64,000 nt of DNA from an uncultured delta proteobacterium (GTDB lineage Bacteria; Myxococcota; Myxococcia; SLRQ01). The position numbers are program-made. How positions within the stretch are numbered: position 1 is the first letter of the stretch; every line of letters starts with the position of its first letter. Below, one piece after another: positions 18,001-24,000 of the stretch. The DNA is taken from assembly GCA_963727485.1 (NCBI GenBank), contig CAVSGM010000001.1:832001-896000 (forward strand). Direction: 5' to 3'.

Positions 18001-21000
18001 CCCTTGAGGCCCATCTTGTCGATGGCCTTGGTGTCCATGCAGGCGGCGTAGTAGTCGCCGATCTTCTTCTTGCCCGCGTCGTCACCGGGGTTCTTGGCGG
18101 CGTCCTCGAGGATTTGGTGGAGGGTCTGGATGTTCCGCTCGTGGATGACGCTGAAGCTGCGCGACCACATCGACCGGTCCGCGGGGATCTCGGTCTTCTT
18201 CAGCCAGCCACCGCAGGCGTACTGGTAGAAGTCGCTGCAGGGGTCCGCGGTCTTGTCCATGGCCGTGGGGTCGAGGCCGACGTCGGCGAGCGACACCTTC
18301 TCGATCTCGGGGCCGGCGGGCTTGGGCGCCGGCTTGGCCTTTTCGGCCTGGGCGGGCTTGGCGGCGGGCTTGGGGGCCGCGGCGGGGGTCGAGGTCTTGC
18401 ACCCGGCCACCAGGACCAGGGCAAGGGCGAGGGCAAGGGAGCGCGTCTGCATGGCCTACCTCCGTGATTGGGGCGCGGAAGCTACCACAGGCCCCCGGTG
18501 GCGCCTACCCGCCTGGGTCAACCTGCACCGGGGCGCTAAAGCCCCACCCCGGGTGGCCGATGGGAGGCGTCGAAGGACACCCGTGACATGGCGACGGCAA
18601 CCCAGGCAACCCAGGCAGGACAGGCACAGATCATCCCCCTGAAGGGGCGGGCAGGCCCCTCGGTGCCCGGTGGCGACCCATCCCGGGCGCCGACGGACAC
18701 CGACGCGGAGCTCAACCTCCGCATCCTCTGGTCCCTGGCGCAGTGGCTCCGCGATCACCGGGGGCAGGCCGCCCTGCGCCGGGCCGCCGAGGCCGGGGGC
18801 ATCGCCCCCGAGGACCTCGACGGCAAGAGCCGCTGGGCCTCGGTGGCGCAGGTGGACGCCTTCTTCGCCGCGGCCCGGGAGACCATGCCCGACGACGCCA
18901 CCTTCGCCCGGGCCTGTGCCTGGCGCATGGCCGAGGGCCTCGGGCCCTTCCGCCACCTCCTCTGGGCGATGAGCCCCCGGGCGGTCTACGGCCAGGGCGC
19001 GAGGTCGATGCGCCTCATCTCCCGGGTGAGCCGCTACGAGCTCGCCGAGGAGCGCGAGGGCCTGGCGGTCTGGCGCTACCTGACCGACCGGCCTGAGAGC
19101 CGCCTGATCTGCCTCTCGCGCCTCGCCCAGATGAAGATGCTCCCCACCCTCTGGGGGATGCCCGAGGCCCGGGTGGAGGAGACCGCCTGCGTCGCCCACG
19201 GGGACGGCCACTGCGAGTACCGCATCCACTACTACGCCGCCTGGCGCTGGCTCCCCGGGGGGCTGGGCTTCCTGGCTGGGCTCCTCGCCGCGGCCGCGGC
19301 CACCGGCCTGGGGGTCGCCGCCATGCCCCTGTGGGTGTCGCTGCCCCTCCTGGGCGCCGCCACCGGGTTCCTGGTGGAGCTGCGCCGGATCAACCGGATG
19401 AACCTGGGCCTGGGCGCGGAGATGCAGGAGGCCCTCCTGGAGATCGCCCGGGACGACGCCGAGGCCCGCAGCGAGCTCCTCGCTCTCCAGCAGCGCCAGC
19501 AGGCGTGGACCCGGGTCCTCGAGGCCCAGGTCGCCGAGCGCACCGCGATGCTCCAGCGGATGGTCGACAAGATCCAGCGCATCCGCACCGAGCGCGAGGC
19601 CACCCTCCGGGGCTTCTCCCACGACCTGCGCAATCCCCTGGCGGTGCTCCGCGCCGGCACCGGCCTCCTCGCCGAGAACGCCGAGGTCCTCGGCGAGGAC
19701 GGCCCGGAGCTGGTCGCCGACATGGAGGCCTCGGTCGACCGGATGGAGCGGATGCTTCGGGAGGCCATGGACGTCGCCGAGGGCCGGGGCCGCCTGCTCC
19801 ACCTGGTCCCCGAGCGCCTGGTCGTCGCCGAGCTCCCCGAGCAGCTGCGCCGCCGGCTCCAGGCGCTGGTCCTGGGCCGGGACATCCGGGTCACCGCCTT
19901 CGCCACCCGGGAGGCCCCGGAGGCCGTCGAGACCGATCCCCTCCTCTTCGACCGGGTCGTCGACAACCTGCTCACCAACGCCGCCAAGTACACCGAGCGC
20001 GGGAGCATCGTGGTCGAGGTCGGTGGCCGCCCCGGTGCCCTCACCCTCAAGGTCTCCGACACCGGCCGGGGCATCGCCGACGAGGCCCTCCACCGCATCT
20101 TCCAGGCCGGCGGCTCCACCGAGCGCGCCCCCGGGAGCTGGGGAGTGGGGCTCTCGGTGGTCGTCGATCTCCTGGCCCAGGTCGGCGGCCACCTCGAGGT
20201 GATGTCCCGCCCCGGGGTGGGCACGACCTTCTGGGTCCACATCCCCGAGCGCCTCGATCCCACGGTCGCCTCCGACGACCCCATCGACCAGGTGGTCACC
20301 ATCCGCAGGAACGACACCCCATGACGACTGCCCTCCGGGTCTCCAAGCCCGCCCCCGCCTCCGCCCCCGAACGGGCGGTGGATCTCTTTCTGCGCTACCT
20401 CAAGGCCGAGGGCGTGCGCGTGGTCTTCGGCATCCCCGGCGGCCTGCTCCACCCCTTCTTCGAGGAGGCGGAGCACGACCCCGAGCTCACCCTGGTGGTG
20501 CCCAAGCACGAGGAGGGCGCGGCGTTCATGGCCGACGGCTACGCCCGGGCCGGCGGCGGGCTCGCGGTCTGCGCCGGTACCGCCGGTCCCGGATCCACCA
20601 ACCTCCTCACCGGTGTGAGCTGTGCCTTCGCCGACGGGGTGCCGATGGTGGTCGTCACCGGGCAGGCCGCCAGCCGCGCCATGGGCCGCGGCGCCGCCCA
20701 GGAGACCACCCGGGAGGACATCGACATCGTGGAGATGTTCCGGCCGGTGACCAAGTACTCGGCGATGGTCACCGACGTCGCGGACCTCGGCCGGCACCTG
20801 CGCCGGGCGCTCCGCCGCGCCCTGACCGGGCGGAGGGGGCCGGTGCACCTCAACCTCCCGGTCGACCTCTGGGAGCAGCCGGTCCCCGAGGACGACTGGC
20901 GCGATCCGGCGACCTGGCGCCCGGAGACGCACCTCTTCGACCGCGCGGCGGTGTCCCGGGCCGCCGACGCCCTCCTCGAGGCCGAGCACCCGGTGATCCT

Positions 21001-24000
21001 CTGCGGCTCCGGGGTCGCCGCCGCCGGCGCCGAGGGTCACCTCCTGGCCCTCGCCGAGCTCCTCGACGCCCGGGTGGCGACCACGCCGAGGGCCAAGGGG
21101 GTGTTCCCCGAGGACCACCCGGCGTCCCTGGGCGTCCTGGGCTTCGCCGGCCACCGCGCCGCCCGGGAGGTCCTCCTCGGCGACGAGGTCGACGTCCTCC
21201 TCACCGCCGGCGCGTCGCTGAACGAGACCACCACCTTCAACTGGCACCCGGGGCTGGGGCCGGCCCGGGCCCTGCTCCAGCTCGACATCGACCCGGACCG
21301 CATCGGCCGCAACTACCCCGTCGACGTGCCCCTGGTCGGCGACGCCCAGACGGTGTTGGTGGAGCTCGTCTACCACCTCCACCGGGCGATCCGCGACGGG
21401 CGAAGGCCGATGGGCCGATGGGGCGACGCCCCGCCGGTGCCCGGCGGTGAGGCGCGCTACGCCGAGCCCGAGCTGCGGGGCTCGTCGGCCCGGCCCCTCG
21501 CCCCCCAGCGGTGGCGGGTGGACCTGATGGAGGTGCTCCCCGACGACGCCCTGGTGTTCTCGGACATCGGCGGCCACATGCTCTTCAACCTCCACGACCT
21601 GGAGATCCGCTCGGGCCAGCGCTTCCTCATAAACCTCGGGTTCGGGTCCATGGGTCACGGGACGGTGGCGCCCATCGGCGCCGCGCTGGCCGACCCCGAC
21701 CGGCCGGTGGTGGCCATCGTCGGCGACGGCTGCTTCACCATGAACGGGATGGAGCTGCTGACCGCCGCCGAGCACCGCCTCCCGGTGGTGTGGCTGGTGG
21801 AGCACAACGACATGCACGGGATCACCTGGCACGGGAGCAAGCGGGTGGGGCGCAAGCGCCCCATGGAGTCGGTGCGCTACCGCCGACACCTCGACGTCTC
21901 GGGGATCGCCCGGGCCATGGGCCTCACCACCGAGGTGGTCGACGGTCCCGGGCAGCTCCAGGCGGTGCTCCCGGGGCTCCTCGCCGCGCGGGCCCCGGCG
22001 GTGGTCGAGATCCGGGTCGACGGCACCATCGAGCCCCCCCTGGGGGACCGGGCGAAGACCATCGCCGGGTTCACCGAGCGATGACCGCCCGGGCACAGGT
22101 CCCATCGCCGGCCGCCGACACCGACGACCACGGGCCCGTGGAGGACACCCCCTGGCCGACGCGCCTCGAGGCCCACGTGGTCACCCCGGGCCCGGCGCCG
22201 CGGATCCACGGCTACGACGTCCACGACGACCTCGCCCGGCACTACGGCTTCGGGGAGGTGGTCTTGCTCACCCTCACCGGTCAGCCCCCGAGCGTGGGGG
22301 TGGGGCGGGTGTTCGAGGCGGCGCTCGTCGACCTTGCCCCGGTGACGGTCGCCGAGGCCCCGGCCCACGCCGCCGTCCTCGCCCGCCTCTGCGACGCCGA
22401 CCCCGCGGGGACGGTGGCCACCGGCGCCATCGGCCTCGCCGAGCAGGCGCGCGAGCGCATCACCCGCCACCGGGCGGCCCTCGAGGCCCTGCGCGCCGGG
22501 CGCCCCTGGGCGGAGTGCGACGGACGCTGCGAGGGGGCAGATGCCTTGGCCGAGGCGCGTATCGCCGAGCGGCTCCGGGAGACGGGCCTCGTCGCCCCGC
22601 GCCTCGCCGGCCCGGTGTGCGCCGAGGCGGAGGGCCTGGCGACGCTGGCGGCCCTGGGCCTCACCGAGCCCTGGCAGCTCCTCGCGGCCCTGGTGGTGGC
22701 GCGCCTGCCGGCGGTGGCCGCCGAGGCCCAGGCGGTGACCCCGAGGTCGTTCCCGAGCTACCCCATGAACCTCCCGCCCTTCGTCTACGAGGTGCCCTGA
22801 TGGAGCCCGTCCGTACCCGCGTCGCCCACGCGGGCTGGCACGACCACCGTCTGCGCCACCGCCGGCTCTTCGCCGAGGTCCTCGGGCGCGCCGACCTCAC
22901 CCGCCTCAGCGTCCTCGCCCTCACCGGCCGCGACCTCGACCCCGACGCAGCCGCCATGGTCGACGACCTCGCGGTGGTCACCAGCGTCTCCGAGCCGCGG
23001 ATCTGGCCCCTGAAGGCGGCGCGCCTGGTGGCCTCCTACGGGGGGACCATGGCGGGGTTTGCCGCCGGGTGCCTCTGGGCCGACCGCGCCCAGGTGGGCT
23101 TCTGGACCTGCGGCCTCGCCGCCGAGAGCCTGGTGGCGCTCGCCGCCGAGCTCGGTGACGGCGCCGCGGATCCGGTGCGGGTCGCCGACGCGGTGCGCCG
23201 ACGGCTCGAGCGCGGCCAGGTCATCGCGGGCTTTGGCGTGCCCTTCCGGGACGAGGACGAGCGGATGGTGGCCCTGCGCCGCCAGGTGCGCGCCCGCGGC
23301 CGCGACGGTGGCCGCCACTGGACCCTCCTCGGGCACCTCGCCGAGACCATGCGCGCCGAGCGGCACCTGGGCGCCAACATCGGGCTGGGGCTCGCCGCGG
23401 TGCTCCTCGACCTCGGCTTCGACGCCGGCGAGATCAGCGTCCTCGCCGCCCAGCTCGGCCACCACACCTTCCTCGCCAACGCCCACGAGGGCGCCATCCA
23501 GGGCGCCCCCGCCCTGCGCCGGCTCCCGGACGAGGCGGTGGCCTACGTGGGCGCCGGGCCCCGGCCCTCACCGCGGGCGGCGGCAGGGGACGGGGTCGCC
23601 GGTCCCGACCTCAGTCCTTGAGGATGAAGGTCACCTTGAGGTTGACCCGGTAGGTGGTGATGCGGCCGTCCTCGACGCTGACCTGCTGCTCCTTCACCCA
23701 GGCCGACCGGATGTTCTCCACGGTGTTCGTGGCCCGCTTGATGCCCACCCGGATCGCGTGCTCGAAGCTCTCGGGCGACTCGCTGGTGATCTCCATGACC
23801 TTGGCGACGCTCATGCTCTCCCCCTGGCAGGGCGCCGGGACGAGCCCGGCGCGCGTGACTGCCTCGGACGTATGACCCGCCCCCGGGGGCGCAAGGCGTG
23901 GATCCCCCGCCCCGGGCGGCTTCCCCGGCGGGGCGACACCCCAGCGCAGGCTCTGCACCTCTCGTGGGTCCCGGACGCAGGCCGGGAGCATCCGGCGGGG

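What a model noticed while it worked through the whole genome (the two positions that open the first line are those of the whole stretch)
18588..23621. V4R-sensor histidine kinase cotranscribed with a ThDP carboligase and a split citrate-synthase-fold pair
A histidine kinase with an N-terminal V4R-type ligand domain overlaps a ThDP enzyme and two short citryl-CoA-lyase-like genes of no assigned family, and this four-gene block recurs in many metagenomes. The three enzymes likely make a small acyloin-type signal that the kinase senses: a synthase-receptor (autoinducer) module. It would be a new small-molecule signalling system in myxobacteria and soil bacteria.
Evidence so far: Genes g00748-751; V4R E 5e-4; citryl-CoA lyase HMMs far below cut-off. 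Best PDB hits of the ThDP enzyme are BbmA and CsmA (E 1e-128, 5e-103), above AHAS. The genome has no ilvC or ilvD rows, so it is not a BCAA enzyme. Of 45 metagenome loci over 4.3 kb, 42 have the pair, 37 the ThDP gene and 18 the kinase; the kinase goes with the ThDP subclade at 65% identity or more. The ThDP-pair block is also in 3 of 60 other phylum genomes, two with this kinase and one among other kinase genes. Search 136 found 0 papers.
(Added by a program. Inside this text positions count along the whole contig: contig position 832,001 is position 1 of the stretch shown here. "Call 12" and the like, gene names such as g00115 and contig names such as C1 are that model's own, and its searches are not shown. 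The text may have been shortened before it was handed on; [...] marks where a part breaks off. The agent that wrote the report below was given it as the finding of a first reader that could run no searches.)

Follow-up and report, generated by a model that had tools for sequence, protein, structure and literature searches.

The report
Myxobacterial butenolide make-and-sense operon
Four overlapping genes, conserved across uncultured myxobacteria, join a sensor kinase to a thiamine enzyme of the furanolide-building kind and to two citrate-lyase-like proteins that have lost the usual catalytic residues; because other genomes carry a furanolide-synthase-like enzyme in place of those two proteins, the operon likely makes a small lactone signal that the kinase likely senses.

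Summary
Confirmed. Four overlapping genes encode a kinase, a CybE/BbmA-type ThDP enzyme and two citryl-CoA-lyase-fold proteins (C, D). In 201 genomes of one myxobacterial class, all 29 close ThDP orthologues have the kinase within about 3 kb. C and D are paralogous lyase-sized proteins, not halves of one citrate synthase, and D lacks the His/His/His/Asp set. The sensor is closer to H-NOX/VirS (Z 13) than to V4R (Z 7.9); it keeps a zinc site, but this copy lacks the heme histidine. New here: a FabH-like gene, the layout of furanolide synthase CybF, replaces C/D at least five times on the ThDP tree, and 22 of 29 ThDP+FabH loci also carry a kinase of this sensor fold. So C/D likely do CybF's acyl-CoA step, the product is likely a butenolide rather than a bare acyloin, and the kinase is its likely receptor (joint odds about 0.5). 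Product, ligand and activity are untested. The scan noted this operon before in another genome (e1-948018); ten paper searches found no description of it.

The parts
18588..20324 (+). Membrane-anchored orphan histidine kinase, 578 aa: N-terminal H-NOX/V4R-fold domain, hydrophobic segment, coiled coil, HisKA (His345), HATPase_c
   Evidence: Pfam HisKA 4e-9, HATPase_c 1e-22; hydrophobic windows start at residues 225-232
18693..19253 (+). Sensor domain (residues 36-222), H-NOX/VirS/V4R fold with a predicted Cys3Glu zinc site; Arg at the heme-His position in this copy
   Evidence: AF2 pLDDT 92; H-NOX Z 13.1, VirS 12.8, PoxR/DmpR 7.9; hhalign to 9 H-NOX-family sequences prob 97.5; column counts
20321..22084 (+). 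ThDP-dependent carboligase of the BbmA/CsmA/CybE kind, 587 aa; Glu64 and GDG468-470 intact
   Evidence: CsmA named a CybE homologue in PMC12395478
22081..22800 (+). Protein C, 239 aa: diverged citryl-CoA-lyase-fold paralogue; small-domain GFG motif gone; own conserved His96 and Glu215
   Evidence: NCBIfam PRK06224 E 1e-4; hhalign to D prob 84.7 over 211 columns, to lyase-like set prob 89.6 over 49 columns; H96 73 of 76, E215 75 of 76
22800..23621 (+). Protein D, 273 aa: full-length citryl-CoA-lyase fold without the His/His/His/Asp set; new invariant motifs DPRIWPLK and GFGVPFRxxDER
   Evidence: profile vs PDB 6hxp E 1e-16; AF2 pLDDT 94, Foldseek TM 0.77 to 6hxp; column counts in 107 homologues

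Best explanation
The operon encodes a CybE-type thiamine enzyme, a citryl-CoA-lyase-fold pair that lacks the lyase catalytic residues, and an H-NOX/V4R-fold sensor kinase, and it likely makes a small butenolide (furanolide-type lactone) that the kinase likely binds. Step 1 (inferred from homology): the ThDP enzyme joins two 2-keto acids into an alpha-hydroxy-beta-keto acid. Step 2 (inferred from gene swaps): a C/D heteromer binds an acyl-CoA from general metabolism, acylates the hydroxyl and closes the ring, the job that the KSIII-like CybF does in known furanolide pathways. Step 3 (inferred): the lipophilic product or its acyloin precursor enters the heme-free pocket of the cytoplasmic sensor domain and sets the kinase's output to a regulator encoded elsewhere. 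Shown: gene order and overlaps, folds, residue losses, linkage and swaps. Not shown: any activity, product or ligand.
For: (1) Linkage: 29 of 201 genomes of the class of G203 have a ThDP orthologue at >=60% identity (next best 43%), and all 29 have the sensor kinase within about 3 kb; 29 of 33 close sensor matches lie beside such a ThDP gene. The four genes stay together through rearrangements (L042, L044, L047, L076, L078, L143). (2) Swap: 25 of those 29 have D beside them, one runs off its contig after C, and three (G275, G303, G348) have a 363-374 aa FabH-like gene instead. On a 46-row IQ-TREE quick tree the label FabH versus C/D changes 7 times, at least 5 forced by branches with SH-aLRT >=95 (104-row FastTree agrees). 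None of 29 ThDP+FabH loci has C or D in the region; the 80 C/D loci hold only 2 weak FabH hits (135-141 bits). (3) ThDP+KSIII is the published core of furanolide pathways, also in myxobacteria (PMC12395478, PMC8777810). A PrnA-like halogenase lies between cybE and cybF in Enhygromyxa salina SWB007 (supplement) and between ThDP and C in L069 and L072. P450 and O-methyltransferase genes sit in both kinds of locus. (4) 22 of 29 ThDP+FabH loci carry a kinase with this sensor fold, 12 of 19 if the 10 loci used to build the second profile are left out. (5) Residues W83, R97, R172, C175, R178, Q179 are kept in all four FabH-linked sensors but W83, R97 and Q179 or Q181 differ in the genome's stand-alone paralogue and in the two distant PilZ-linked copies. 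(6) The furanolide nostoclide is a density-dependent mediator in Nostoc (PMC9324945). (7) C-D complex: weak support, score 0.32 vs best control 0.00; runs agree in >=96% of contacts, partner pLDDT >=86; the mark was reached by 116 of 157 solved and 2 of 215 mismatched pairs, but at 0.60 or under by only 18 solved pairs and both mismatches.
Against: No activity, product or ligand is known. D lacks all His/Asp residues used for thioester chemistry in citrate synthase and C has no invariant Cys (C104 in 52 of 76), so the chemistry cannot be read from sequence. I could not compare the FabH-like genes with CybF itself. The sensor family is not exclusive: the own genome has a stand-alone paralogue, 67 of 95 genomes of family f2 carry a distant copy, in the loci read behind a PilZ protein and mostly a methyltransferase, and 10 of 10 weak-scoring copies that I read have no ThDP gene nearby. 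25 of 80 C/D loci have no kinase of this fold in the DNA held, 10 of them also no SpoIIAA-like gene (5 of the 10 are cut short upstream); 7 of 29 ThDP+FabH loci have none. 29 of 50 sensors keep His at the heme-ligand column and 16 of 50 keep His plus YxS/TxR, and 41 of 50 keep the zinc ligands, so gas or redox sensing is open. In two genomes kinase+ThDP lie apart from C/D (L282, L283), which fits sensing of the ThDP product as well. No acyl-CoA ligase or response regulator is in the operon. Nostoclide does not induce its own genes.
Confidence: 0.5

Rival explanations
1. The enzymes make a secondary metabolite, and the kinase senses an unrelated cue (NO or O2 through heme in some members, thiol oxidation at the zinc site, or another metabolite) to switch production on.
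For: Best folds are H-NOX; His and YxSxR columns align with H-NOX, 16 of 50 keep both, 41 of 50 keep four zinc ligands; heme-free Vibrio H-NOX senses oxidation at this site (PMC7108781). Receiver-ThDP fusions in related loci show that kinases can control the synthase.
Against: The proximal His is described as absolutely conserved in H-NOX but is missing in 21 of 50 sensors and in this copy; the second sensor subfamily has neither heme motif nor zinc cysteines yet keeps the link to ThDP+FabH; the genome has a true H-NOX elsewhere.
Confidence: 0.22
2. The acyloin (or hydroxy-keto acid) itself is the signal; C/D are non-catalytic acyl-CoA-binding or scaffold subunits, or catalyse another step that is not ring formation.
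For: D has lost His/His/His/Asp and C has lost the small-domain motifs. Kinase+ThDP is the most stable pair: it persists when C/D are swapped out or moved. Alpha-hydroxyketone signals with kinase receptors are known (CqsA/CqsS, LqsA/LqsS; recalled).
Against: D has 13 invariant columns in 107 homologues at about 40% identity, mostly polar residues around the old site; a pseudo-enzyme would not be expected to trade places with a catalytically intact KSIII five or more times.
Confidence: 0.2
3. A catabolic block: the ThDP enzyme and a lyase-like pair break down an outside compound that the kinase detects.
For: Ligand-sensing V4R-fold domains control aromatic catabolism (PoxR, DmpR hits); ordinary PRK06224 lyase-like genes exist in the same class.
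Against: Closest solved relatives are synthases; no recurring transporter, ligase or dehydrogenase in the 80 loci; halogenase, P450 and O-methyltransferase genes are inserted in related loci.
Confidence: 0.07

Closest known systems
CybE/CybF furanolide pathways (cyanobacterin, nostoclide, maculalactone; enhygrolides of Plesiocystis and Enhygromyxa)
   Same: CybE/BbmA/CsmA-type ThDP enzyme; partner gene directly downstream; halogenase inserted at the same place in some loci; no ligase in the two-gene myxobacterial form (PMC8777810)
   Different: The KSIII partner is replaced by a citryl-CoA-lyase-fold pair; a dedicated sensor kinase is fused into the operon; no receptor is named in the passages I read
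Nostoclide signalling in Nostoc punctiforme (PMC9324945)
   Same: A furanolide acting as a density-dependent chemical mediator
   Different: AraC-type regulator in the cluster, no kinase receptor described, no autoinduction
CqsA/CqsS and LqsA/LqsS alpha-hydroxyketone quorum sensing (recalled, not tested)
   Same: Synthase gene beside a histidine kinase receptor; acyloin-like chemistry
   Different: PLP synthase and a multi-helix membrane sensor there; ThDP enzyme and a soluble H-NOX/V4R-fold sensor here
Citryl-CoA lyase (PDB 6hxp; PRK06224)
   Same: Fold and length (TM 0.77); Arg of the DPR motif and the GFG loop kept in D
   Different: DHG, HGG, GxGH and NVD residues replaced; two unequal paralogues instead of one subunit
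H-NOX proteins and their kinases; VirS/CdpR N-terminal domains; V4R domains of PoxR/DmpR
   Same: Fold, zinc-site cysteines, YxSxR-like strand
   Different: Fused to a membrane-anchored kinase; heme His in only 29 of 50; invariant W83 and R178 not seen in the H-NOX consensus
pixB locus of Myxococcus xanthus (PixB, MXAN_2604; HK-RR-HK MXAN_2606)
   Same: A PilZ-protein/methyltransferase/HK-REC-HK run in family f2 carries a distant copy of this sensor domain and matches the published layout; the match is by architecture only
   Different: No ThDP enzyme or C/D there; pocket residues differ

Membership tests
CybE/BbmA/CsmA-type ThDP synthase | Closest solved relatives are BbmA/CsmA rather than AHAS | tested here: met
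   1e-128 and 5e-103 vs 1e-66
CybE/BbmA/CsmA-type ThDP synthase | Catalytic Glu and GDG ThDP motif | tested here: met
   E64, G468, D469 invariant in 44 aligned
CybE/BbmA/CsmA-type ThDP synthase | Couples two 2-keto acids in vitro | not testable with these tools
   needs assay
Biosynthetic AHAS (ilvB) | Score above family cut-off; ilvC/ilvD pathway in the genome | tested here: not met
   368 vs 538 bits; no ilvD, only partial ilvC matches in a 93% complete genome
Furanolide (cybE-cybF) gene cluster | KSIII-like furanolide synthase next to the ThDP gene | tested here: not met
   this locus has C/D instead; sister loci L139-L141 have a KSIII
Furanolide (cybE-cybF) gene cluster | The KSIII of sister loci is a CybF orthologue | not testable with these tools
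   CybF sequence not held (alignments are figures; no plasmid match); size, position and scores under FabH cut-offs (159 vs 249 bits) fit
Citryl-CoA lyase / citrate synthase | Fold | tested here: met
   D; C: profile match only, not folded alone
Citryl-CoA lyase / citrate synthase | His of DHG, His of GxGH, Asp of NVD (roles recalled) | tested here: not met
   P in 106 of 107, V in 98 of 107 with no His listed, G/A after the invariant Asn
H-NOX heme sensor | Fold | tested here: met
   Z 13.1, rmsd 3.4, 174 aligned; hhalign 97.5%
H-NOX heme sensor | Proximal heme His | tested here: not met
   Arg142 in this copy; His in 29 of 50
H-NOX heme sensor | YxSxR motif | tested here: inconclusive
   YxTxR here; YxS/TxR in 20 of 50
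V4R (PF02830) | Score above gathering cut-off | tested here: not met
   19.5 vs 31 bits over 22 residues; zinc-site residues are present
Synthase-receptor quorum-sensing module | Synthase and sensor genes conserved together | tested here: met
   29 of 29
Synthase-receptor quorum-sensing module | Receptor binds the product; autoinduction | not testable with these tools
   needs binding and expression data

The most novel reading that the evidence does not exclude
Myxobacteria share an undescribed furanolide-type cell-cell signalling language: CybE-type synthases with two interchangeable ring-closing enzymes, one of them a new catalyst built on the citryl-CoA-lyase fold, read by a family of heme-free H-NOX-fold histidine kinases that would be the first furanolide receptors; the M. 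xanthus developmental kinase MXAN_2606 would be a distant member reading another self-made molecule.
Probability: 0.35. Interest if true: 0.85.

Novelty: new variant of a known kind. Interest (0 to 1): 0.7.

Why it matters
Furanolides such as enhygrolides and nostoclides have known synthases but, in the papers I read, no named receptor. This module names a candidate receptor family and a candidate second enzyme solution for the ring-closing step, both testable in E. coli with four genes. It would also give the H-NOX fold a role as an organic-ligand sensor on a kinase, and a lead for uncharacterised myxobacterial kinases that carry the same domain.

Tried and rejected
Single-sequence PDB searches with C and D found nothing; the D profile did. 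Pfam has no family for C or D. The sensor profile gave only a chance-like PDB sequence hit, and the Atlas gave no hit of 0.9 or more. My first H-NOX profile used wrong frames for 6 of 9 loci; it was redone and only the second is used. 'Split citrate synthase' rejected: each protein is lyase-sized and they align with each other from end to end. AHAS role rejected. Recurring neighbours (type VI secretion genes, tyrosyl-tRNA synthetase, HU) follow lineage, not the cassette. No recurring response regulator: REC-EAL, REC-HD, LuxR and sigma-54 regulators occur in scattered loci, not tested against the high myxobacterial background. Distance correlations among sensor, kinase, ThDP and D trees (0.46-0.72, 47 loci) show co-inheritance only. 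No promoter or terminator pattern. No RNA holder listed. No plasmid match for the ThDP or FabH-like protein. The careful IQ-TREE run did not finish; the quick tree is cited; frameshifted L077 and partial ThDP genes were left out of trees. Ten paper searches found no description of the operon; the BbmA/CsmA paper is not held and bioRxiv supplements were closed, so a mention there cannot be excluded.
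Full report
Observation. The four genes are real and overlap head to tail: kinase 18588-20324, ThDP enzyme 20321-22084, C 22081-22800, D 22800-23621. Of 80 metagenome loci, 43 exceed 4.3 kb; 41 have C, 34 ThDP, 15 the kinase. Co-transcription is inferred from the overlaps.

Distribution. A scan of GTDB genomes with the D motif kept 80 of 82 loci; all are MAGs, mostly titled Polyangiaceae, Nannocystaceae, Sandaracinaceae, Myxococcales or Bradymonadales. 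C is in 79 of 80, a ThDP gene in 75, this kinase in 50, a kinase of a second subfamily with the same fold in 5, a small SpoIIAA-like gene in 15, and none of these in 10, of which 5 are cut short upstream. Whole-genome searches avoid the motif bias. In 201 genomes of the class of G203 (Polyangia by inference), 29 have a ThDP orthologue at 60% identity or more, with a gap down to 43%; all 29 have the sensor within about 3 kb. Of 33 close sensor matches, 29 are these; one faces a distant ThDP+FabH operon, one is on a short broken contig, and two stand apart. Some of these genomes also fed the sensor profile, but the 29 were chosen with the window's ThDP protein alone. Of 35 genomes with a close D, 25 have the sensor beside it. 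In 151 genomes of the own class (one of them, G133, unpublished and only counted) the close sensor and close ThDP occur in the same 4 genomes, D in these and one more. Three C/D loci lack ThDP; in all three genomes kinase+ThDP lie on another contig, once with a second C/D copy.

The pair. D folds like citryl-CoA lyase (pLDDT 94; TM 0.77 to 6hxp). Against 6hxp its DHG, HGG, GYGH and NVD motifs read DPR, xGP, GFGV and NIG; in 107 homologues the first His column is Pro in 106 and the GxGH column Val in 98, while the Arg of DPR is invariant. The roles of those residues are recalled from citrate synthase work. D has its own invariant set (W69, P70, R150, D153, E154, R155, N193, E230, R255). C aligns with D over 211 columns, has lost the GFG loop and keeps H96 (73 of 76) and E215 (75 of 76). 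They are two paralogues, not halves of one gene. A C-D complex got weak support: 0.32 against a best control of 0.00 (counts under Best explanation).

The swap. In G275, G303 and G348 the same kinase and the same ThDP clade are followed by a FabH-like gene instead of C/D, and no close D is found in those genomes (in G348 the FabH gene is on the opposite strand). Conversely, inside a distant ThDP clade that mostly pairs with this FabH type, L174 and L175 carry C/D. On a 46-row tree the label changes 7 times, at least 5 forced by strong branches. None of 29 ThDP+FabH loci among 84 regions read has C or D. [quoted passage not shown] Myxobacterial producers of enhygrolides have just the two genes, one strain with a tryptophan-halogenase-like gene between them (PMC8777810; passages and supplement part 2 read); L069 and L072 have such a gene between ThDP and C. 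KSIII and lyase folds both handle acyl-CoA (established knowledge). I infer that C/D do CybF's step or at least the acylation. I could not align the FabH-like genes with CybF.

The sensor. Residues 36-222 fold like H-NOX (Z 13.1, rmsd 3.4, 174 aligned) and VirS (12.8), ahead of PoxR/DmpR V4R domains (7.9). A profile alignment with nine H-NOX-family sequences (97.5%) places the heme His at column 142 and YxSxR at 164-168: His in 29 of 50, both features in 16 of 50, four zinc ligands in 41 of 50; this copy has Arg142. PMC7108781 (passages) calls that His absolutely conserved in H-NOX and describes oxidation sensing at the zinc site. W83 and R178 are invariant instead; that they line the pocket is inferred from the alignment. 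A hydrophobic stretch follows the domain, so it is likely cytoplasmic. The HK-REC-HK proteins beside the distant ThDP+FabH loci start with the same fold (95.9%) without heme or zinc motifs. 22 of 29 ThDP+FabH loci have one of the two sensor types (12 of 19 outside the training set). Against exclusivity: a stand-alone paralogue in this genome, ten weak copies without ThDP nearby, and the PilZ-linked copy in family f2, whose layout matches the pixB locus (PMC8316039 and bioRxiv 10.64898/2026.08.28.747804; passages).

Mechanism. Most likely: 2-keto acids are coupled by the ThDP enzyme, C/D add an acyl group from acyl-CoA and close a butenolide, and the product or its precursor binds the kinase, which signals to a regulator elsewhere. 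My odds: biosynthetic cassette 0.9; C/D as acyl-CoA-dependent stand-in for the KSIII 0.65; kinase reads the cassette's own molecule 0.6; all steps as stated about 0.5, since they support one another. Precedent for furanolide signalling: nostoclide is a density-dependent mediator but does not autoinduce (PMC9324945; parts 1-3 of 4 read), so 'autoinducer' is not warranted yet.

Novelty. Synthase-plus-kinase modules and furanolide pathways are known kinds; this combination, the lyase-fold stand-in and the candidate receptor were not found in ten searches (also passages of PMC13307353, PMC13288894 and PMC13118837, which do not describe it; the BbmA/CsmA paper is not held). The scan noted the same operon in another genome (e1-948018) and related ThDP+pair modules with TonB receptors (e1-2434614, e1-2613171); these are unchecked AI notes, seen after I had found the swap, and a word search for the swap found no note. 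Verdict: new variant of a known kind, interest 0.7.

Noticed in passing
L162:9197-11320, L164:11130-13283 (also 684-738 aa ThDP genes in L165, L167, L168, L171, L174, L175, L196-L198): ThDP synthase with an N-terminal receiver domain (Pfam-confirmed in L162 and L164): a biosynthetic enzyme likely under direct phosphorylation control.
   Followed up: partly
L096:4183-10276, L097, L098, L103: A distant copy of the sensor domain heads an HK-REC-HK behind a PilZ protein and a methyltransferase; 67 of 95 genomes of family f2 have a distant sensor match. The layout matches the published pixB locus, whose kinase MXAN_2606 is called uncharacterised and whose mutants behave like asgA cheaters in a pooled screen (bioRxiv 10.64898/2026.08.28.747804).
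   Followed up: partly
L001:8621-9148, L026:11019-11525 and 13 more loci: A 140-180 aa protein with a weak SpoIIAA-like lead (Atlas 0.83, 18% of members) occurs in 15 of 30 C/D loci without the kinase and in 0 of 50 with it; possible alternative ligand-binding partner.
   Followed up: partly
L157:7712-8710, L158:6561-7505, L187, L188, L189: ThDP gene followed by one 303-333 aa lyase-fold gene with other substitutions, beside a KAS II gene in L157 and L158: a single-gene variant.
   Followed up: partly
L145:8334-14512: Second sensor copy of G203 faces a ThDP+FabH operon that continues into STAS, SpoIIE and RsbT-like genes (stressosome-like).
   Followed up: partly
G000:C1:29714-31429 (-): Stand-alone paralogue of the kinase beside an MgtE-like gene, with changed pocket residues; the genome also has a true H-NOX at C2:1473799.
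   Followed up: partly
window 16223-18452 (-) and 12011-13026 (-): An M13-type peptidase gene and an LD-carboxypeptidase-like gene are each spread over two frames (names from reading the sequence); likely assembly indels.
   Followed up: no
window 23611-23872 (-), 24082-24510 (+), 24535-26836: Downstream: a dodecin-like small gene (read by eye; no NCBIfam hit) overlapping the end of D, an avidin-family gene, a fatty acid desaturase, and a cyclopropane-synthase-like methyltransferase with an acyl carrier protein.
   Followed up: no
L172 (G287:C19:81174-89217): Several tandem lyase-fold genes around a distant ThDP gene.
   Followed up: no
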